A stretch of 64,000 nucleotides of DNA, taken from IMG/VR virus record IMGVR_UViG_3300035669_000001, positions 1-64,000 of that record. One strand, written 5' to 3'. The stretch's first letter is position 1, and every line of letters begins with the position of its first letter. The position numbers and the translations under genes were made by a program. Source of the stretch: a virus. The notes under the pieces were generated by a model. It was not told the origin of the DNA, searched no databases, and saw only the letters and a list, made by a program, of their open reading frames with translations. Of this stretch, positions 27,953 through 46,258 are shown piece by piece.

Positions 27953-29950
27953 GTGAGTATCGACCAGTCCAACTACGCCCAGATGGTGGACGTCACCCAG
28001 GAGGGTGAGGTCAAGCAGCTGCCTGTCGGCGGGATGTTCGACGAGATGGGCGGGACCGGGCTCAAGCGCTCTGCGGGGGTCATCGACGAGGAGTTCATGC
28101 CCGCCCTCCGGGGCACCAAGGGCGTCGCGGTCTTCCGGGAGATGTCGCTCAACGACTACACCGTGGGCTCGTTGCTGTTCACGATCGAGATGCTGCTGCG
28201 CCAGATCGACTGGACGGTGACCGGGGACGACACCTCACCGGAGCAGTCAGAGGCTGTGCAGTTCGTGGAGGAGTGCATGGACGACATGTCCCACTCCTGG
28301 AACGACATGATCGCCGAGATCCTCTCGATGCTCACCTACGGGTGGGCCTGGCACGAAATCGTCTACAAGAAGCGGGTAGGGCCCTGGGAGACCGACCCCA
28401 AGAAGCGCTCCAAGTTCACCGATGGCCGGATCGGGTGGCGCAAGATGCCCATCCGGGCCCAGGAGACGCTGTTCCGGTGGATCTTCGACGTCGACGGCGG
28501 CATCAAGGGGCTCGTGCAGATCCCTCCCCCGGACTACACCCAGCGCACCTTGAGCATCGAGAAGGGCCTGCTGTTCCGCACCGGGATCCACAAGGGCAAC
28601 CCCGAGGGCCGGTCAATCCTTCGGAACGCGTACCGCCCGTGGTACTTCAAGAAGCGCCTGGAGGAGTTCGAGGCGATCGGGGTCGAGCGTGATCTTGCGG
28701 GCCTTCCATTCGCCAAGATCCCCAGCCGGCTGATGGACCCGAACGCCTCCCCTGCTGAGAAGCAGATGTACGCAGCGTTCAAGAAGCTCGTGGCCAACGT
28801 CCGGCGGGACGAGCACGAAGGGGTAGTGATTCCCAGCGACGTCGACGCCGAATCCAAGGCCCCCAAGTACGACTTCCAGCTCCTCGCCTCCGGGGGCAGC
28901 CGCACCTTCGACACCAACGCGCTGATCGGCCGCTACGAGCTGGCCATCCTCTCGACCGTTCTGGCCGACTTCCTCAAGCTGGGTCACGAGGGTCAGGGCT
29001 CCTACGCCATGCACGTGGACAAGACCGGCATCTTCCGGGCTGCTCTCAACACCATAGCCACTGCCATCGCCGACGTCTTCAACCGCTACGCGATCCCGAG
29101 GCTGTTCGCGGCCAACTCCTGGAAGCTGGACAAGCTCCCCAAGATCGAGCCCTCCAACGTCGACCCGCCCAACCTGGCCGAGCTGGGCCAGTTCATGACG
29201 TCCATGGCGGGCCTGGGGATGACCTTCTTCCCCGACCCCGACCTCGAGAAGTACCTGCGTGACACCGCGCACCTCCCCGCCCTCTCAGAGGAGCAGGAGG
29301 AGATGCACCGGATGATGAGCGAGCAGGCCAACGCGATGGAGTTCATGGGGGCCAAGCAGAAGGCCGAGATGGTGGGCCAGGGGATGACCCCCGAACAGGC
29401 CCAGATGCAGTCGGAGATGCCCACCCCGGAGATGCAGGCCCAGGATCCCCAGGCCCAGGCGACCAACCAGAAGATGCAGATGGACCAGGCGGCCTCTGAG
29501 CAGAAGATGGCCCAGGAGGCACAGTCCCACTCACTGCAGCAGGCCACCCAGGCCCAGGGGCTGGAGCAGGCCACCAAGGAGACCGACCTCAAGGCCAAGC
29601 AGGGCGAGGCCGAGCTGGCGACCGAGATGAAGCGGATGCAGATGGAGCTCGACGCCATGAAGGCCAAGATGGGCCTGGAGGCAGAGGGTTCCAAGCAGAC
29701 CCTGGACGCCAAGGCCAAGGGCTCCGCGCTCGACCTCAAGGCCAAGGAGGCGAGCACCAAGGCCGACCTGGACGCCAAGAGGCGGGGCAACGTGATCGAC
29801 CTGAAGGCCAAGCAGGCCCAGGCGAAGCTGCGTCCACAGCCGGCCGCAGGAAGGTCCAAGGGACGCGGAAGGGTGAGCAAGAACGGCAATCTCGGGCCTT
29901 CCAACGGCTGGGGCTGGCCGAACGATGACAACCCGTTCCGTAGGTCCTGA
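27953..29950 (+). CDS. Portal protein (Mu gp29/DUF935-like) with long C-terminal extension
   Basis: MLTYGWAWHEIVYK, GNPEGRSILRNAYRPWYFKK, GVERDLAGLP, AIPRLF..N. Confidence 0.92.
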   Translation: MSIDQSNYAQMVDVTQEGEVKQLPVGGMFDEMGGTGLKRSAGVIDEEFMPALRGTKGVAVFREMSLNDYTVGSLLFTIEMLLRQIDWTVTGDDTSPEQSEAVQFVEECMDDMSHSWNDMIAEILSMLTYGWAWHEIVYKKRVGPWETDPKKRSKFTDGRIGWRKMPIRAQETLFRWIFDVDGGIKGLVQIPPPDYTQRTLSIEKGLLFRTGIHKGNPEGRSILRNAYRPWYFKKRLEEFEAIGVERDLAGLPFAKIPSRLMDPNASPAEKQMYAAFKKLVANVRRDEHEGVVIPSDVDAESKAPKYDFQLLASGGSRTFDTNALIGRYELAILSTVLADFLKLGHEGQGSYAMHVDKTGIFRAALNTIATAIADVFNRYAIPRLFAANSWKLDKLPKIEPSNVDPPNLAELGQFMTSMAGLGMTFFPDPDLEKYLRDTAHLPALSEEQEEMHRMMSEQANAMEFMGAKQKAEMVGQGMTPEQAQMQSEMPTPEMQAQDPQAQATNQKMQMDQAASEQKMAQEAQSHSLQQATQAQGLEQATKETDLKAKQGEAELATEMKRMQMELDAMKAKMGLEAEGSKQTLDAKAKGSALDLKAKEASTKADLDAKRRGNVIDLKAKQAQAKLRPQPAAGRSKGRGRVSKNGNLGPSNGWGWPNDDNPFRRS

Positions 29951-32900
29951 TGCCCTGGGAGCGCACCGGCAGCGGCTACAAGACCGCCAAGGGCGGCTTC
30001 GTCCGTAATCCTGGTCAGTACGAGACCCTTAGGTCCAAGGGGATGTCCAAGAGACGTGCGGCCATGATCTCCAACTCGGTGGGCAAGTCCTACATCGGCG
30101 GCAAGTTCGTCCGGGCGGTGGACCTGACCGCCGAGCAGCGCAAGGTCCTGGGCGCAGGCAAGTACATCCTTTACCGCGGCCGCAACAAGCATGTCAGCAG
30201 AGGTCTTGAGAGGTTCGGACCGAACAACCAATGGAGGCAGTCTCGAGGAGCCAGCGGCAACCGGGGCACCCACCTCAACGAGTACAGGGCAGGGTGGAGC
30301 GCTACCAAGAACGTCGTCGCAGCGCCAGGGAACATGGGTGGTGCTCGCCGGAACAAGCAGGCGTACCGCCGGCTTGAGCAGGTCAACGGGGAGACCAACA
30401 CCGCTGCCTTCACCATCCGTACCGGGTCCAAGAGCACAGGCAAGTCCCACGTCTTCTACAACCGGAAGCGGATGCAGGAGGCCGAGAGTCATAAGCCCGG
30501 CTACCTGGCTGCCGTAGCTCCACACGAGCACGCCCATGCCGCTCCCAAGAGGTCCGGCTACCGGCTCTTCCAGGTCATCCAGGACCCTGCCACGCTGGGA
30601 CGCGAGGAGGCCAGGGCGGACTTCATCGCCTCAGGTGGGAAGCCGGTCAGGGGGCTGAAACGCACGTCCTTCTACGCCCACAACGCCCTGCGGGATCGAC
30701 AGGCGTCCAAGTACAAGTACGTGAAGGACGTCGGGGGCAAGCAGGGCGAGTTCGGTGCGTCCTACATCGCGCACACCCGGATGCTGCACAACAAGATCAG
30801 CAAGCCAAAGAAGGTGTCCAAGGCGTTCGGCGGGGTCAAGCGGGTGGCAGGAGCCTTCGCCAGGAAGCCCACAGCAGAGGCCGCGACCTTCGTGGACAAC
30901 CGGGTGGCTCAGGTTGCTCCCGGGATCACCAGGGCCGCTGCACCGCCGAAGAACGCCACCCAGTCACTGGTCAGCGACACGTTGGCCCACATCAACCGGG
31001 TCAAGGCCAGCCCTCCTGCTGCTGTCCCCTTCGCCCCGCACAAGCCCAAGACCATCGGGTCACTGGGGGCCGAGTGGCATCCCAAGCCACAGGCAGCCGC
31101 TGCGTCCGGGGCTCTCAGCTTCAAGGGCCACAAGGCGCCTCCGCTGACCAAGCCCGCACCAGCGAAGGCAAAGCCTGTTCAGGCACCCCCACCCGCTGCT
31201 CCTCGGCTCTCCCGTGTTGGTGCCCAGCGGAGCAGGTCGGGGTTCCAGGGGTTCACCCGGAGGCCCAGGGTTGTTCCTGCGGCCCCCAGTGCCCCTCCCA
31301 GGGCCGCTCCTGCAGTCACCAGGCCACCTAGTGCCCAGCCGGTGAGCACACCGACCCAGGCTCCGCGTGGCAACGGCCGGCGCAACGCCGGCATTGCAGC
31401 AGCCGGTGCAGGTGCGGTAGGTCTTACCGGAGCAGCGGTCTACTCGAGGAGGAAAAAGGTGGACGGCGTATCAAAGGCGTTCTCCCTACGCGGGGTCGCC
31501 CCGCGCCGGATGGGGGTCAACGTCGGCCAGCATGCCGGTGTGAACACACCACGCAGGGCCGGTGGCTTGTCGAGCATGTTCCAGCGGGGCAGTGCGCCGA
31601 AGCGCGCCATGCAGGCAGGCTCGCGGGAGATGGGTGTCGCTGCCAGCCCTCGTCGGCTGATGGGTCCAGGTGCCGCCCCAGGTGGCGGCATCAACCCCCG
31701 CGGGACTGGACGCCCTGCCAGTGCTGTGGGCCGTCCAGGACTGGCTGCTGCTCCCTCGGTGGCCGCCGGTGGTCCTGCCGCGGCCGCACCCAAGGTGGGA
31801 GGCATCGCCCGTCCGGTCGGTTCCGGCAGCAGGCCGGCGCCGAAGACCGGCGGGATGGCCCGGCCCTACGCCCCGGTGCCCAAGCCTCCGGTGACCACTC
31901 CCAAGCTGCCAGGGGCTGCTGCAGCGCGTCCGTACGCGCCTGTCCCTGTCGCTCCGAGGACCAGCAACCGGAACCGTAACCTTGCCCTGGGAGCAGGCGC
32001 TGTGGGTGCTGGCGGGCTCGGCATGGCCGGTGGTGCTCTCGGGCAGCGCAAGGTCCGCAAGTCCTTCTCGCCCAACCAGGCACGAGACGAAAGGGGCAGG
32101 TTCATGCCCATGGTGCAGATGCTCCAGGTCAACGACTTCGAGCAGACCGAGGACAACGTCGAGAAGAAGTTCGACCGGACCGACAAGATCATCGCCGGAC
32201 TGTCAGCAGTCGGGTTGGCCGGTGCCGGGGCTGCCGCCTACAAGGGCAACAAGGAGGCCAAGCGTCTGGGTGGCACGAAGGGACTCACCACCAAGGAGAA
32301 GATCTTCGGTGTCCGGGGCAAGGTTGCCCAGTGGGCCGGTACCGAGAAGCCCAAAGGTTGGAAGCCCTCGGACCGGGTGCACAAGTCTCTGCGGGTCACA
32401 GGGGCACGTCGGCTCCCGGGGTACAAGCCACATCCTGACGACGTGGAGGAAGCGGTCGCCCTGGCACGCAAGCAGTTCCCCGGTCGCAAGACGACCAAGA
32501 AGGAGGTCCTGGAGGAGCTTCAACCCTCTGGTGGTCTGGGTGGTGTAGCAGGTAGGGGCTTCGGGGCAAGGTCGAACCGCATCTCCAAGGGCTCTCCCGA
32601 CATGGCCGACGTCCACATCGAGGGTGTGCTGCGTCCGGTCGGCAAGATGCGTCGTGCCCGGGTGGAGAAGGGCATGGTCGTGGTGGGCAAGGCCGACGAG
32701 CCCCGCAAGCCCGGCCAGTGGAACGCCAACCAGCGTGCTGGCGCTGCTGGACTGGTGAGCACGTTGGCCGGTGGTGCCATTCCCCTCGGGGTAGGGATCG
32801 GCGCTGGCAGTGCTGCGCGCAAGGGCAAGCGGTTCAAGACCGGCGGCAACGCCTTCGTCCGCACCGGCGCGGAGGGCGGCGTCGGGGGTGCTGTGGGAGC

Positions 32901-33039
32901 AGGTGCGGGTATGTTGACCCGCAACCGTATGGCTACGAAGATCGGCGCAGCTCTCGGTGGAGGTGTCGGGACCGTCCACGGTGCCAATCGGTCGATCGCC
33001 AACTCACGTCGCAAGGGATACCTGAGGAGCGGTTTCTAG
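29950..33039 (+). CDS. Very basic modular head-associated protein (candidate polyprotein)
   Basis: 1029 aa, R/K/A/G/P-rich; about 10 [VI]xK[SAGKM] sites; HEHAH motif; RDERGRF; PDMADVHI. Confidence 0.75.
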   Translation: MPWERTGSGYKTAKGGFVRNPGQYETLRSKGMSKRRAAMISNSVGKSYIGGKFVRAVDLTAEQRKVLGAGKYILYRGRNKHVSRGLERFGPNNQWRQSRGASGNRGTHLNEYRAGWSATKNVVAAPGNMGGARRNKQAYRRLEQVNGETNTAAFTIRTGSKSTGKSHVFYNRKRMQEAESHKPGYLAAVAPHEHAHAAPKRSGYRLFQVIQDPATLGREEARADFIASGGKPVRGLKRTSFYAHNALRDRQASKYKYVKDVGGKQGEFGASYIAHTRMLHNKISKPKKVSKAFGGVKRVAGAFARKPTAEAATFVDNRVAQVAPGITRAAAPPKNATQSLVSDTLAHINRVKASPPAAVPFAPHKPKTIGSLGAEWHPKPQAAAASGALSFKGHKAPPLTKPAPAKAKPVQAPPPAAPRLSRVGAQRSRSGFQGFTRRPRVVPAAPSAPPRAAPAVTRPPSAQPVSTPTQAPRGNGRRNAGIAAAGAGAVGLTGAAVYSRRKKVDGVSKAFSLRGVAPRRMGVNVGQHAGVNTPRRAGGLSSMFQRGSAPKRAMQAGSREMGVAASPRRLMGPGAAPGGGINPRGTGRPASAVGRPGLAAAPSVAAGGPAAAAPKVGGIARPVGSGSRPAPKTGGMARPYAPVPKPPVTTPKLPGAAAARPYAPVPVAPRTSNRNRNLALGAGAVGAGGLGMAGGALGQRKVRKSFSPNQARDERGRFMPMVQMLQVNDFEQTEDNVEKKFDRTDKIIAGLSAVGLAGAGAAAYKGNKEAKRLGGTKGLTTKEKIFGVRGKVAQWAGTEKPKGWKPSDRVHKSLRVTGARRLPGYKPHPDDVEEAVALARKQFPGRKTTKKEVLEELQPSGGLGGVAGRGFGARSNRISKGSPDMADVHIEGVLRPVGKMRRARVEKGMVVVGKADEPRKPGQWNANQRAGAAGLVSTLAGGAIPLGVGIGAGSAARKGKRFKTGGNAFVRTGAEGGVGGAVGAGAGMLTRNRMATKIGAALGGGVGTVHGANRSIANSRRKGYLRSGF

Positions 33040-41508: not shown

Positions 41509-42360
41509 ATGGACGTACTGGAGGCTCTGCGCGCGCACGGTGAGGCTGGGGCGGCTGTCGTGGACCTGCTCTACGGCGAGGGTGCGGAGGAGGTTGTCAA
41601 GGCTCTCAGTGAGGACCGCAAGCGGAAGATCGCCACCGCCTCCAACGTGGTCGGGATCGGCGCTGGGCTGGCTGCCATCCCCGGTGCCACCCGCGACTTC
41701 CGGAACGCCGCGAAGACTGCCAGGGGTGCCAGTGACAAACCGGTCGGCGTCCTGAAGCCGGTGGGCAAGATCCGGGGCAACATCCGCGGTGGTCTCAAGG
41801 CCACCAAGAACTTCCTGGGCAAGCCGAAGACCGCGCTGGCACTGGCCGGCGGCGGTCTGGCCCTGCAGGCGGGGAACGTCGGCGGGGACTTCGTGACCAA
41901 CCAGGTCCTCCGCGCCGACCAGAAGAAGTCGGGCGTCTCCAAGGGGCTGACCGACATCGAGTGGACCGGCGAGTTCTCCAAGATGGACACCGACAAGCGC
42001 CAGGTGTTCGGGTGGGCCTCGGTCACCGCGGTCGACGGCGTCCCGGTGACCGACCTCCAGGAGGACGAGATCGACCTCGAGGAGATCGAGAAGGCCGCCT
42101 ACTCCTACGTGGCCAAGTCCCGGGTCGGCGGCAACATGCACAAGAAGACCATCGACGGCTCCCCGGTGCACGTCTCCGACATGATCGAGTCCTTCGTGGT
42201 CACCCCGGAGAAGAAGCAGACGCTGCACCTGGGCAACGACACCCCGGAAGGGTGGTGGGTCGGCTTCCAGGTCAACGACGACGAGACCTGGGACGCGGCC
42301 AAGAACGGCGAGCTGGTGGGCTTCTCGATCCACGGAACGGGAAAGAGGCGTGACGGCTGA
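41509..42360 (+). CDS. XkdF-like prohead serine protease with N-terminal extension
   Basis: KRQVFGWASV...DLQEDEI...EKAAY...NMH...IESF...PEGWWVG...TWDAAKNGELVGFSIHG. Confidence 0.9.
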   Translation: MDVLEALRAHGEAGAAVVDLLYGEGAEEVVKALSEDRKRKIATASNVVGIGAGLAAIPGATRDFRNAAKTARGASDKPVGVLKPVGKIRGNIRGGLKATKNFLGKPKTALALAGGGLALQAGNVGGDFVTNQVLRADQKKSGVSKGLTDIEWTGEFSKMDTDKRQVFGWASVTAVDGVPVTDLQEDEIDLEEIEKAAYSYVAKSRVGGNMHKKTIDGSPVHVSDMIESFVVTPEKKQTLHLGNDTPEGWWVGFQVNDDETWDAAKNGELVGFSIHGTGKRRDG

Positions 42361-43589: not shown

Positions 43590-43627
43590 ACGGGTTGCAG
43601 GCTAAGACAGAATTGTGGGTGAGGAAC

Positions 43628-44806
43628 ATGCCAAAGCTCAGTGATCTGAACATCGACGAGGTCAGCCTCGTGCGCAAGGGCGCCAACCAACATGCCCGGG
43701 TGGCAATCGCGAAGTCAGCAGGAGGAGAAGTGGACGAGGAGTACTTCGACCAGGAAGGAAACGCGGTCGACGTCGAGGAGCTCGAGCATGGCGACATCGT
43801 CTTCGACTCTGACGGTGAGGCCTACCAGTACGACGAGCCTGGTGACGATGACGACGAGGTCGAGAAGGCCCTGTACGTCGGTGGCCGCGAGGTCACCAGC
43901 CGGGTCGGACGTGCCGCTGGCAAGGCGTACATCGGAGCCGGCCGCAAGGCCAAGTCCGCCAACAAGTTCCGGATCCAGACAGGTGCGATTGCCGGGCAGG
44001 CAGCCCGCAGGGGCGCCAAGCGTGTATCCAGCGCTGCCGGTACGGGTGCCGGGTTCGTCGCCGGCAACGCCAAGCGTGGTGCAGGGGCAGTGGCGGGAGC
44101 CGCACGTAGCACCGGCACGGCAGCCGGGAACGCGGGCAACGCCATGGGCGGGGCGATCCGCGGGGCCGCGGCGCAGACCGAGGGCTTCCTGCGCACCGAG
44201 AACAACGCCTTCAACACCCGCGGCCGGATCGGCGCCCTCGGTGCCGGTGGTGTGCTCGCCGGTGCCGGTGGCGGCTACGCGGCAGGCAGCAACGGCCGGG
44301 TCCGCAAGAGCGCGTCCGACGACCTCCGGGAGGAGCTCTCCAAGGCACTCACCGACGACGACCGGGACGAGGTGATCGCGAAGGCCTTCGGGTACGTCGA
44401 ACAGGCCGAGCAGGTCGCCCAGGAGGCCTGGGAGATCGCCGAGGAGGAGCGGGAGAACCGCCGGGCTGCGGAGTTCTACGAGGTGGCCAAGTCCTACGAC
44501 ATGGTCCCGGTGGATACCGAGGACCTCGCGATCGCCATGATGCACATGGCCGACCTGCTGCCCGAGGAGGACGTGCAGGTCATCGCCAAGGCCCTGGGCT
44601 TTGCGGCCGACGTGGCCGACGAGCTCTACGAGGAGCAGGGCAACGTGGGCGGTGGCGACAACTCCGACGTGATGGAGCAGCTGCAGACGTTCGCGCGCAA
44701 CCGGGTCGCCAAGTCCGGTGAGGGCTCAGCCGAGCAGTACCTGGTCGATGCCCTCAACCATGACCCAGCGGTGTACGACCAGTACCTCGCGGACAACAGC
44801 CGCTGA
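43628..44806 (+). CDS. Scaffolding protein carrying the protease EVSLV..AN strand and a basic insert
   Basis: MPKLSDLNIDEVSLVRKGAN; eight [VIL]xK[SA] sites; C-terminal PAVYDQY; lies before decoration and capsid genes. Confidence 0.8.
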   Translation: MPKLSDLNIDEVSLVRKGANQHARVAIAKSAGGEVDEEYFDQEGNAVDVEELEHGDIVFDSDGEAYQYDEPGDDDDEVEKALYVGGREVTSRVGRAAGKAYIGAGRKAKSANKFRIQTGAIAGQAARRGAKRVSSAAGTGAGFVAGNAKRGAGAVAGAARSTGTAAGNAGNAMGGAIRGAAAQTEGFLRTENNAFNTRGRIGALGAGGVLAGAGGGYAAGSNGRVRKSASDDLREELSKALTDDDRDEVIAKAFGYVEQAEQVAQEAWEIAEEERENRRAAEFYEVAKSYDMVPVDTEDLAIAMMHMADLLPEEDVQVIAKALGFAADVADELYEEQGNVGGGDNSDVMEQLQTFARNRVAKSGEGSAEQYLVDALNHDPAVYDQYLADNSR

Positions 44807-45262: not shown

Positions 45263-46258
45263 ATGCCTCGTCCTGACATGGCAGATGTCCATATCAACAC
45301 CCCGCTGACCAACGTCAGCATCGCCTACATCCAGAACGCCTCCAACTTCATCGCCACCAAGGTCTTTCCCAAGCTCCCGGTGGACAAGAGGTCGGACCTG
45401 TACTGGAAGTACTCCAAGAGCGACTGGCGGCGTACCGACGTCCAGCGTCGTGCTCCCAGCACCGAGTCTCCGGGCACGGGCTGGAACACCTCGATGGACC
45501 AGTACTTCTGCCACGTCTACGCAGTGCACAAGGACATCGACGACCAGCTCCGGGCGAACGCGGACTCGGTCTTCCGGCTGGACAGCGATGCCACTGCCTT
45601 CGTGACGAACCAGATGCTCATCAAGCGCGACCTGGACTGGACCGCCTCGTTCTTCAAGACCGGGGTATGGGGCACGGACAAGGCGCTGCTGGCGACCGAT
45701 GCCAACCCGGAGAACATCCGCTGGGACCGGGCCACCTCGGACCCGATCGGTCTGTTCGGCACGCTGCAGCTCGCCTTCATCCAGCAGACGGGCTTCAAGG
45801 CCAACACCGCCGTGTGCGGTGCCAACGTCCTGAAGGCGCTGAAGAACCACCCGGCCATCATCGACCGGATCAAGTACACCCAGAAGGGCATCGTGACGAC
45901 CGACCTGATCGCCACCCTGCTCGACGTCGACCGGGTGTTCGCGGCCTACGCCACCTACTCCACCGGACCCACCATCCCTGATGCGGTGGCCCAGGACGCA
46001 GCGGCGACCAACACCTTCATCGCGGACCCCAACTCGGTGCTGTTGTGCTACTCCCCGGCCAGCCCGTCTCTGATGAGCCCGGCCGCTGGGTACACCTTCA
46101 CCTGGAAGGGCTACCTCGGAGGGAACGCGCAGGGGATCCGGATGACCCGGTTCCGCATGCCGGCCATCCGGTCGGACCGCATCGAGGCCGAGATGACCTA
46201 CGACATGCACGTGATCTCCCCGGACTGCGGTGTGTTCCTGACGAGTGTTGTCGGCTGA
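45263..46258 (+). CDS. Major capsid protein (HK97 fold, lambda gpE-like)
   Basis: HINTPLTNVSIAY.Q...FIA.KVFP, SDPIG, LKNHPAIIDRIKYT, PAAGYTF.W. Confidence 0.92.
   Translation: MPRPDMADVHINTPLTNVSIAYIQNASNFIATKVFPKLPVDKRSDLYWKYSKSDWRRTDVQRRAPSTESPGTGWNTSMDQYFCHVYAVHKDIDDQLRANADSVFRLDSDATAFVTNQMLIKRDLDWTASFFKTGVWGTDKALLATDANPENIRWDRATSDPIGLFGTLQLAFIQQTGFKANTAVCGANVLKALKNHPAIIDRIKYTQKGIVTTDLIATLLDVDRVFAAYATYSTGPTIPDAVAQDAAATNTFIADPNSVLLCYSPASPSLMSPAAGYTFTWKGYLGGNAQGIRMTRFRMPAIRSDRIEAEMTYDMHVISPDCGVFLTSVVG

What the first reader, a model, noticed from the sequence alone, without database searches (positions are those of the whole stretch)
32581..32640. Exact copy of the major capsid N-terminus (PDMADVHI) just after a predicted cleavage site
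Seen: the 1029-aa protein reads ISK|GSPDMADVHIEGVL and the capsid protein (45263) begins MPRPDMADVHINTPL, giving 8 identical residues. The codons differ at 4 of 8 third positions (ccc gac atg gcc gac gtc cac atc vs cct gac atg gca gat gtc cat atc), which suggests conservation at the protein level rather than a fresh DNA duplication. Inference: the segment mimics the capsid N-arm to dock the polyprotein on the procapsid or scaffold, or acts as a decoy for a host sensor that recognises capsid.
Basis: partly seen in the sequence, partly recalled or inferred. Interest (0 to 1): 0.85.

Follow-up and report, generated by a model that had tools for sequence, protein, structure and literature searches.

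The report
Capsid N-terminus copy tagging head cargo
A 1029-residue head protein of this uncultured phage carries, right after a probable protease cut site, an exact copy of the first residues of the phage's own shell protein; related phages put the same kind of copy on their head protease, so it is most likely a self-mimicking label for loading proteins into the young capsid, though no binding or cutting has been measured.

Summary
PDMADVHI is encoded twice in the window, at 32596-32619 and at the capsid start (45272-45295). Four of the eight codons differ, so this is not a recent DNA copy.

The stretch is one instance of a conserved 27-35-residue module. It consists of [VI]-x-K, then an in-register copy of the capsid N-terminal tip, then Gly and a basic tail.

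A profile of the module finds 51 protein clusters. N-terminal copies sit in the pro-region of XkdF prohead proteases. C-terminal copies sit on HExxH-domain proteins like this one.

A profile-profile comparison aligns the module to capsid residues 1-15 (P about 1e-4). Across 41 distinct phages the module resembles its own capsid more than other capsids (permutation p = 3e-5). Lineage-specific matches support this, for example PGS..H.DGP in L253.

In this phage the protease has lost the copy and the 1029-aa protein carries it, bracketed by ISK| and VEK|.

Best reading, at about 45%: a docking tag that uses the capsid N-arm tip's own contact and is later cut out. Cleavage and binding are inferred only. 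The decoy idea has no support.

The scan has noted similar capsid-arm copies on other DNA (e1-6091958, e1-5770514, e1-5892721).

The parts
29950..33039 (+). 1029-aa head-module protein (P0001) encoded directly after the portal gene. It has an N-terminal DUF7218, an HExxH domain (about aa 150-235), Pro/Ala-rich and Gly-zipper segments, and the module near aa 878-907.
   Evidence: The ORF and its translation are, and the Pfam DUF7218 hit is. The HExxH domain is homologous to domains in other module-bearing proteins: E = 1e-13 against P0148, with the motif list. [VI]xK sites are enriched.
32581..32589 (+). I-S-K, the putative prohead-protease cut site; the cut would fall after 32589.
   Evidence: [VI]-x-K precedes the motif in all nine aligned instances, and K is invariant. 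It also precedes the motif in 50 of 50 profile hits. Cleavage itself is inferred.
32590..32619 (+). GSPDMADVHI, an in-register copy of the capsid N-terminal tip. The exact 8-mer lies at 32596-32619.
   Evidence: It is conserved as ASPDMADVHV in homologue P0005 and in the IMG/VR contigs G001 and G002.
32620..32670 (+). EGVLRPVGKMRRARVEK, the Gly/basic tail of the module, ending at a second [VI]-x-K site (VEK|). The excised module would be 27 residues (32590-32670).
   Evidence: The translation is. A basic tail follows the motif in all instances.
45263..46258 (+). Major capsid protein (Phage_cap_E / phrog_1005).
   Evidence: Family hits are. There are 1924 homologues with E < 1e-20.
45263..45322 (+). 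The capsid N-terminal tip, MPRPDMADVHINTPLTNVSI. The 8-mer lies at 45272-45295.
   Evidence: The sequence is. The family N-terminus M-P-x-P-x-x-x-D-[LV]-H-[VI]-N-x-P-L-T-N-V-S is among the best conserved parts of the protein; P4, H10, P14, L15, T16 and S19 are invariant in 121 sequences.
41509..42360 (+). XkdF-type prohead protease (Peptidase_S78_2 domain at aa 155-280) with a leader and a Gly-zipper pro-region.
41593..41616 (+). VVKALSED, the position in the protease pro-region where relatives carry K|MSPDxADVHV or K|MNPTQSDL. Here the capsid-like motif is lost.
   Evidence: See the alignment A4 and the list of pro-regions.
41746..41775 (+). GVLKPVGKIR in the protease pro-region. It matches GVLRPVGKMR of the module tail in the 1029-aa protein at 8 of 10 residues.
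   Evidence: BLASTP result.
43595..44806 (+). Acidic scaffold-like protein, a candidate binding partner of the N-arm tip. It carries 8 [VI]xK[SAGM] sites.
   Evidence: The partner role is inference only.

Best explanation
The stretch is one copy of a portable short module that is widespread in tailed phages with an XkdF-type prohead protease and this capsid family. The module has three parts:
- a [VI]-x-K site, probably cut by the prohead protease;
- about ten residues that copy, in register, the extreme N-terminus of the phage's own major capsid protein;
- a Gly-rich turn and a basic tail.

In most relatives the module sits at the end of the leader in the protease pro-region. In others it forms the C-terminal tail of HExxH-domain head proteins. 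In this phage the protease has lost it and the 1029-aa HExxH protein carries it, bracketed by ISK| and VEK|.

The most likely mechanism is as follows. The capsid-like tip makes the same contact that the shell protein's N-arm tip makes in the assembling procapsid, either with the scaffold or with a neighbouring shell subunit. The protease or cargo is thereby built into the procapsid interior. The protease then cuts at the flanking [VI]-x-K sites, freeing the cargo modules from the tag.

Shown here: the identity, its protein-level conservation, the module family and its hosts, the profile similarity to the capsid N-terminus, the tracking of the module with its own capsid, and the site enrichment.

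Inferred only: the cleavage, the binding partner and the loading.
For: - **Conservation without DNA copying.** The 8/8 identity shows no excess codon identity.
- **A distant homologue keeps the segment.** P0005 is 36% identical to the 1029-aa protein and reads KASPDMADVHVQGVLRPV. P0009, the capsid I matched to P0005's contig by its identical length (53761 bp) and sources, begins MPMPSMADVHI.
- **A module family exists.** A profile search of 1.84 billion representatives gave 51 hits at E <= 1e-3, with consensus V-S-K-M-S-P-D-x-[SA]-[DE]-[VL]-H-V-x-G followed by a basic tail.
- **The hosts are head proteins.** Eight of 10 hosts with an N-terminal copy are XkdF proteases. Hosts with a C-terminal copy share the HExxH...RSxYR...EEARAD domain of the 1029-aa protein.
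- **The module matches the capsid N-terminus.** hhalign places the module profile exactly on capsid residues 1-15, Met on Met, with P = 9.7e-5.
- **Many relatives carry a near-copy in the protease.** Their proteases read K|MNPTQSDL, identical to the capsid M(P)NPTQSDL.
- **The module tracks its own capsid.** Across 41 unique pairs, identity to the phage's own capsid is 5.07 of 9, against 4.55 of 9 to other capsids (permutation p = 3e-5).
- **Independent lineages share lineage-specific residues.** In L253 the capsid reads MNPGSPDVHIDGPL and the protease reads K|FSPGSSDLHMDGPV; 8 of 12 residues match and, read from the printed DNA, 6 of those 8 use different codons. In L248 HVNQ.L is shared. In one clade both carry Q-A-D.
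- **The motif looks like an exposed linear peptide.** An AF2 model of a motif-bearing protease leaves the motif as a flexible linker (pLDDT < 50) between structured parts.
- **A known precedent.** The capsid N-arm is the scaffold-binding element in 80alpha procapsids (PMC5744158).
Against: - No binding, cleavage or loading has been measured or modelled.
- Several relatives have no detectable copy. These include the near-complete G003 (97% complete, capsid 75% identical) and the less complete G004, G005 and G024. The tag is therefore dispensable or replaceable.
- Co-variation is partly explained by shared descent. In a first 10-pair sample it vanished once the window's clade was removed.
- Some pairs disagree. 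In G002 the module reads PDMADVHV while the capsid reads PTASDVHV. In G013 the module reads NPTQ while the capsid reads SPSQ.
- The module has conserved features of its own, such as the D after P and the basic tail, which the capsid lacks.
- Stand-alone 41-59-aa ORFs made of the module alone do not fit a pure 'tag on cargo' role, if they are real genes.
Confidence: 0.45

Rival explanations
1. The motif is a protease recognition element. On this reading it is the primed-side docking sequence (exosite) that the XkdF protease reads when it cuts after [VI]-x-K. The capsid N-terminus resembles it because the protease binds the capsid N-arm tip in order to be retained in the procapsid. The common partner is then the protease itself, not the scaffold or the shell.
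For: The motif is always immediately downstream of an invariant K with V or I at P3. Its commonest home is the protease's own pro-region. [VI]xK sites are enriched in head-internal proteins.
Against: Most enriched [VI]xK sites in the 1029-aa protein and the scaffold have no such motif after them, so the motif is not needed to define a site. The AF2 model of a motif-bearing protease does not dock the motif on the protease domain (weak evidence). The window's protease lacks the motif, yet the phage keeps it on cargo.
Confidence: 0.25
2. The released peptide is itself the product. After cutting on both sides, or after translation from a mini-ORF, a peptide of about 30 residues with a capsid-like head and a basic tail stays in the head. 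It would occupy N-arm sites on the inner shell surface and bind DNA, acting as a stabiliser or charge neutraliser.
For: In every context the module is bracketed by cut sites or lies at a C-terminus, so it would end up as a free short basic peptide. Stand-alone 41-59-aa ORFs consist of a leader plus the module only. Earlier scan notes describe the same design in T4-like phages (e1-5892721; not checked here).
Against: The short ORFs may be fragments at contig ends. The basic tail is poorly conserved in the window's copy. There are no data on virion content. The module is absent from some complete relatives.
Confidence: 0.12
3. A third party recognises both sequences. A host or phage factor, such as a chaperone, a processing protease or an N-terminal modifying enzyme, would act on both the capsid N-terminus and the module. 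The precedent is the host protease Prp, which acts on the motif shared by 80alpha capsid protein, scaffold protein and ribosomal protein L27.
For: The 80alpha precedent of one N-terminal motif on the capsid, the scaffold and a host protein (PMC5744158). The conserved Met and Pro positions also lie in register with a free N-terminus.
Against: In 80alpha the shared motif lies upstream of the cut and is removed. Here it lies downstream, and the capsid has nothing upstream to remove. No candidate factor was identified, and the host is unknown.
Confidence: 0.08
4. The segment is a decoy for a host immune sensor that recognises the capsid N-terminus.
For: Nothing specific. Prohead proteases and capsid proteins are known triggers of bacterial defence systems (PMC12991175, abstract).
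Against: The copies sit in late head-assembly proteins next to protease sites, not in early genes. The usual host of the module is the protease pro-region. No defence-related context was found.
Confidence: 0.03
5. The match is a chance match or a neutral remnant of an old duplication of the 5' end of the capsid gene, with no present function.
For: The motif is short, and some relatives have lost it.
Against: The chance expectation is 2.5e-5. The motif is conserved across 51 clusters. Synonymous codons differ while residues are kept. The module tracks its own capsid.
Confidence: 0.03

Closest known systems
T4 capsid targeting sequence (CTS) of internal proteins IPI-III and Alt, removed by the prohead protease gp21
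   Same: Both are short peptides on non-shell head proteins, next to a prohead-protease consensus site, presumed to load the protein into the procapsid and then to be cut away. T4 knowledge comes from my own reading of the literature; CTS papers are listed.
   Different: The CTS is N-terminal, lies upstream of the cut, binds the scaffold core and does not resemble the capsid protein. Here the tag lies downstream of the cut, may be internal or C-terminal, and copies the capsid's own N-terminus.
Staphylococcal phage 80alpha: conserved N-terminal motif shared by capsid protein, scaffold protein and ribosomal protein L27 (Prp site), and N-arm/scaffold contact (PMC5744158)
   Same: One short N-terminal motif is shared by the capsid protein and other head proteins. 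The capsid N-arm is also the element that binds scaffold in the procapsid.
   Different: In 80alpha the motif is removed by a host protease and mimics a host protein. Here the motif stays after the putative cut, the protease is the phage's own XkdF type, and the model that is copied is the capsid itself.
Herpesvirus scaffold C-terminal capsid-binding tail released at the maturational (M) site
   Same: The architecture is cargo, then a protease site, then a short tail. It is seen in relatives (G006, G021, G002, P0138, P0148), and the tail would be severed to free the cargo. Herpesvirus knowledge is my own.
   Different: The two are unrelated in sequence and lineage. The herpesvirus tail does not mimic the capsid protein. 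Binding is not shown here.
Phage-type polyvalent proteins (Iyer et al. 2017, PMC5512222)
   Same: The 1029-aa protein is a long multi-module protein encoded among head genes. It has an HExxH (zincin-like) domain and is probably packaged and processed.
   Different: No Pfam polyvalent-protein domain was detected apart from DUF7218. In my term search of that paper I found no mention of a capsid-N-terminus-like module.
Earlier notes of this scan on other DNA: protease or small proteins starting with a copy of the capsid N-arm (e1-6091958, e1-5770514, e1-5892721, e1-341508)
   Same: They describe the same design: a cut site, a capsid N-terminus copy and sometimes a polybasic tail, on the head protease or a small protein.
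   Different: They concern different genomes and, in part, different phage lineages (T4-like phages, archaeal viruses). They are AI notes that I did not check, so they are not independent evidence.

Membership tests
T4-type capsid targeting sequence (CTS) | A short peptide on a non-shell head protein, adjacent to a prohead-protease consensus site. | tested here: met
   The motif directly follows ISK. [VI]-x-K precedes all instances and is enriched in head-internal proteins.
T4-type capsid targeting sequence (CTS) | N-terminal position, upstream of the cut, so that the tag is removed from the mature protein's N-terminus. | tested here: not met
   In the 1029-aa protein the motif starts at residue 881 and lies downstream of the putative cut. 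In relatives it follows a 25-50-residue leader or forms a C-terminal tail.
T4-type capsid targeting sequence (CTS) | Sufficient to load a foreign protein into procapsids. | not testable with these tools
   This needs a reporter-fusion experiment.
80alpha / Prp-type shared N-terminal motif | The same motif appears on the capsid protein and on other head proteins. | tested here: met
   
80alpha / Prp-type shared motif | The motif lies upstream of the cut, is removed, and is shared with host protein L27. | tested here: not met
   The motif is downstream of the putative cut, and the capsid has only Met before it. The host is unknown, so L27 could not be compared.
Module of XkdF (Peptidase_S78_2) protease systems with phrog_1005 capsids | An XkdF protease and a phrog_1005 / Phage_cap_E capsid are present in the same head module. 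| tested here: met
   Pfam and PHROGs hits.
Module of XkdF protease systems | The consensus [VI]-x-K / x-[SG]-P-D-x-[SA]-[DE]-[VL]-H-[VI] / Gly / basic tail. | tested here: met
   The window sequence heads alignment A2. K, P, D and H are invariant, and the window fits the 50-sequence consensus.
Module of XkdF protease systems | Located at the leader end of the protease pro-region. | tested here: not met
   The window's protease has VVK|ALSED at that position. The copy is on the 1029-aa protein instead, as in G006, G021 and P0005.
Phage-type polyvalent proteins (PMC5512222) | A multi-domain protein in a head-gene context with a zincin-like HExxH peptidase domain. | tested here: inconclusive
   The head context and the HExxH motif with homologues are present. 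There is no Pfam hit for a peptidase or LPD domain, and the atlas gave only weak leads (LPD23 and M78, score 0.86).
Capsid-binding tail (herpesvirus scaffold / encapsulin cargo-loading peptide type) | The peptide binds the shell protein. | not testable with these tools
   No solved structure of a close capsid relative is available; the only PDB hit is 3bjq. The capsid model has low confidence.

The most novel reading that the evidence does not exclude
Self-mimicry of the shell protein's own N-terminal tip may be a general addressing code. On this reading tailed phages, and possibly archaeal viruses, load their maturation protease and injected cargo into procapsids this way. The label would evolve together with the capsid and be cut out by the protease afterwards. 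This window's family (XkdF protease with a Phage_cap_E-type capsid) would then be one of several lineages that use the same trick.
Probability: 0.3. Interest if true: 0.8.

Novelty: new variant of a known kind. Interest (0 to 1): 0.62.

Why it matters
How maturation proteases and injected cargo proteins get inside procapsids is known for only a few model phages. This finding offers a short label that can be predicted from sequence, that copies the capsid's own N-terminus and that is flanked by protease sites.

If the reading is right, it has three uses:
- It gives a simple rule for finding packaged proteins in uncultured phage genomes.
- It gives a handle for loading foreign proteins into capsids of this large family, which has about 1900 capsid homologues in the database.
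- It makes a testable prediction about what the strongly conserved capsid N-terminal tip binds during assembly.

The finding also defines an unannotated family of HExxH-domain head proteins and a probable cleavage rule, [VI]-x-K|, for XkdF-type proteases. I know of no substrate data for these proteases, and my one paper search on XkdF turned up none.

Tried and rejected
- **Contig look-up.** I paired P0005 with capsid P0009 through the shared contig length of 53761 bp and the shared sources.
- **Searches that found nothing useful.** A DNA search of the phage collection with the C-terminal region gave no match. Locus searches based on the MuF-like protein found no usable relatives. A word-based search for shorter proteins with the motif region found none.
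- **Closest capsids out of reach.** The closest capsid relatives (P0007 and P0008, 82-85% identical) could not be reached in either contig collection.
- **Distant capsid relatives.** The stretches fetched from Kovu and ValentiniPuff (±19 kb around the capsid gene) show no second copy.
- **Scan methods that were too strict.** A 15-mer PSSM that included PLT was too strict and missed true copies. A regex that required His missed the K|MNPTQSDL class until the protease pro-regions were listed directly (then 80, 81).
- **First co-variation test.** With 10 pairs it gave p = 0.048, 0.17 without the window, and 0.44 without the window's clade. The 41-pair test supersedes it.
- **Capsid model.** The AF2 model was poor (pLDDT 45), so no fold search was run. 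PDB sequence and profile searches gave only 3bjq.
- **Complex prediction.** Complex prediction with the capsid plus the cut module returned no verdict. I do not use it as evidence either way.
- **Protease model.** The AF2 model of a motif-bearing protease leaves the motif disordered, so it gives no cis-docking prediction.
- **Module not yet annotated.** PHROGs and Pfam hold no family for the module or for most of its cargo hosts.
- **Scaffold C-terminus.** None is evident.
Full report
**Observation.**
The window is 64 kb of a 77.9-kb IMG/VR virus record that is 97% complete, with GC 65.5%. Its head module on the + strand is:
- portal, 27953-29950;
- a 1029-aa protein, 29950-33039;
- a collagen/tail-fibre-like protein;
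- a 927-aa protein;
- a MuF-like protein;
- an XkdF-type protease, 41509-42360;
- a 409-aa Gly-zipper protein;
- an acidic scaffold-like protein, 43595-44806;
- a cement protein;
- the major capsid protein, 45263-46258.

The 1029-aa protein reads ...NRISKGSPDMADVHIEGVL, and the capsid begins MPRPDMADVHINTPL. These are the only two copies in six frames.

Twenty of 24 bases match and all four differences are at third codon positions. The flanks are unrelated. Only 4 of 8 codons are identical, against 5.6 expected for independent copies under this phage's codon usage. The match is therefore held at the protein level.

About 1e-3 chance 8-mers are expected against the whole capsid and 2.5e-5 against its N-terminus.

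The capsid start at 45263 is right. It has a GAGGAG 7 nt upstream, and about 120 homologues begin M-P-x-P. The database gene call starts five codons too late.

**The capsid side.**
The capsid belongs to a large family, with 1924 hits at E < 1e-20. The family's N-terminus, M-P-[NS]-P-[TS]-Q-[SA]-D-L-H-[VI]-N-x-P-L-T-N-V-S, is among the best conserved parts of the protein. The window's clade (74-85% identical) has the variant P-D-x-A-[DE]-V-H-I.

**The other side is a module, not a one-off.**
The only full-length homologue found is P0005, at 36% identity. It has EVDKASPDMADVHVQGVLRPV at the same place.

A pattern scan of IMG/VR found two more contigs with [VT]-x-K-ASPDMADVHV at the end of HExxH proteins.

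I then scanned 24 related genomes and about 175 loci fetched through the capsid or through a protease hit (P0156). This gave further copies, always directly after [VI]-x-K and always followed by Gly and a basic stretch.

A profile of nine copies, searched against 1.84 billion representative proteins, returned 51 hits at E <= 1e-3. The consensus is V-S-K-M-S-P-D-[PQS]-[SA]-[DE]-[VL]-H-V-x-G, then K/R-rich sequence, often GRL[RK]K.

The hosts fall into groups:
- Hosts with an N-terminal copy are XkdF proteases in 8 of 10 cases, and one is a MuF protein.
- Hosts with a C-terminal copy have no Pfam family. Most of them share the HExxH...RSxYR...EEARAD domain with the 1029-aa protein; the BLASTP E-value against P0148 is 1e-13.
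- Some hits are 41-59-aa ORFs made of a short leader plus the module only.

**It is a copy of the capsid tip.**
hhalign of the 50-sequence module alignment against the 121-sequence capsid alignment picks exactly capsid residues 1-15. It sets Met on Met, P on P and [DE]-[VL]-H-V on D-L-H-V, with P = 9.7e-5.

I also listed the protease pro-regions directly. This showed a second, commoner class at the same leader-end site, K|M-N-P-T-Q-S-D-L. It is identical to the family capsid start M-(P)-N-P-T-Q-S-D-L but lacks the H-V.

After a cut behind K the new N-terminus is in the same register as the capsid's. In the window this means G-S-P-D-M-A-D-V-H-I against P-R-P-D-M-A-D-V-H-I, assuming the initiator Met is removed. 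Removal is the known behaviour of methionine aminopeptidase before Pro; it is not shown here.

**Co-variation.**
A first sample of ten pairs was not convincing once the window's clade was removed. With 41 distinct module-capsid pairs, identity to a phage's own capsid is 5.07 of 9, against 4.55 of 9 for other capsids. Only 3 of 100,000 permutations reach that value.

Part of this reflects shared descent. Even so, separate lineages share lineage-specific residues:
- P[DS]MADVH in the window and in P0005/P0009.
- Q-A-D in one clade.
- HVNQ.L in L248.
- In L253 and L254, capsid MNPGSPDVHIDGPL against protease K|FSPGSSDLHMDGPV. Eight of 12 residues match and, read from the printed DNA, six of those eight use different codons.

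There are counter-examples, such as G002 and G013.

**This phage.**
Its protease has VVK|ALSED where relatives carry the copy, so the copy is lost there. The protease keeps GVLKPVGKIR, which matches the module tail GVLRPVGKMR in the 1029-aa protein.

The 1029-aa protein carries the module between ISK| and VEK|, so a 27-residue peptide would be released.

[VI]-x-K-[SAGM] is enriched in this protein, in the scaffold and in the protease. It is not enriched in the portal, capsid or tape measure. This fits a protease site but does not prove one.

Relatives such as G006 and G021 show the same arrangement, with the protease lacking the copy and a cargo tail carrying it. The near-complete G003, and the less complete G004, G005 and G024, have no detectable copy at all.

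**Mechanism.**
The best-supported reading is a self-mimicking docking tag. The copy would engage whatever the capsid N-arm tip engages in the procapsid. It would thereby load the protease or cargo, and it would then be cut out.

In 80alpha the N-arm is the scaffold-binding element, and one N-terminal motif is shared by capsid, scaffold and a host protein (PMC5744158). That makes this kind of logic plausible.

An AF2 model of a motif-bearing protease leaves the motif as a flexible linker between a helical leader and a helical hairpin. This suits a short linear docking or cleavage motif, and it gives no support for docking onto the protease domain in cis.

The main rival is that the protease itself reads the motif and also binds the capsid tip. 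A second rival is that the freed basic peptide is the functional product. I found no evidence for the decoy idea.

**Limits.**
- No solved structure of a close capsid relative exists; the only PDB hit is 3bjq.
- The capsid model was poor.
- The complex prediction gave no verdict, and I do not use it as evidence.

**Relation to earlier notes of the scan.**
First-reader notes on this genome list the [VI]-x-K sites and the Gly-zipper cassettes; I tested the site enrichment. Notes on other genomes report head proteases or small proteins that start with a copy of the capsid N-arm, sometimes with a polybasic tail. They agree with the present reading, but they are unchecked AI notes and not independent evidence.

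In the paper searches I ran I found no description of this module or of a capsid-N-terminus copy on an XkdF protease.

Noticed in passing
window 45263-45280: The database protein for the capsid (P0006, 326 aa) starts at Met6 (45278). The GAGGAG 7 nt before 45263 and about 120 homologues starting M-P-x-P show that the true start is 45263. The usual gene call therefore hides the first half of the shared motif.
   Followed up: yes
window 30400-30660 (about aa 150-235 of the 1029-aa protein): An unannotated HExxH domain (..TIRTGS..GKS..HExxHxxPKRSxYRxxQ...REEARADF) recurs once to three times in other module-bearing proteins (P0148 has 2 copies, P0177 has 3, P0138, P0146, P0152). There is no Pfam or PHROG family for it. 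It may be a zincin-like peptidase of packaged proteins.
   Followed up: partly
window 41746-41775 and 32626-32655: GVLKPVGKIR in the protease pro-region matches GVLRPVGKMR just after the capsid-like motif in the 1029-aa protein (8 of 10). It may be a remnant of the module tail left in the protease.
   Followed up: partly
window 32053-32103; also G001/G002 (L010, L008/L009): A K-x-[FY]-x-P-x-Q-x-R-D-x-x-G-[RK]-[WF] motif follows VRK in the 1029-aa protein. It recurs several times in head proteins of G001 and G002 (for example KYSEDQPRDEHGRW and KDFNPDQPRDEKGMW). It looks like a second portable junction motif.
   Followed up: no
proteins P0151, P0165, P0133-P0136 (profile hits): ORFs of 41-59 aa consist only of a 7-14-residue leader, [VI]-S-K, the capsid-like motif and a basic tail. 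They could be real mini-genes or fragments at contig ends.
   Followed up: no
L253:6612-9335 and L254: Here the leader, the capsid-like motif and the XkdF domain lie inside one ORF of 907-919 aa with a long extra C-terminal region. This would be a protease fused to further cargo.
   Followed up: no
G003 (L091-L094): This 77.9-kb relative is 97% complete and its capsid is 75% identical. It has no detectable capsid-like copy on the protease (EVSK|ALIEFGKEE) or anywhere else.
   Followed up: partly
L029/L034 (contig of 105,652 bp) and L030/L032 (contig of 135,953 bp): Each of two long IMG/VR contigs holds two copies of the capsid gene about 68 kb apart. This probably reflects concatemer assemblies of a genome of about 68 kb.
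   Followed up: no
window 45266-45295: The capsid copy of the motif uses codons that are rare in this phage (CCT 12%, GCA 9%, GAT 6%, CAT 16%). AT-richer codons are common at gene 5' ends. The internal copy uses the common codons.
   Followed up: partly
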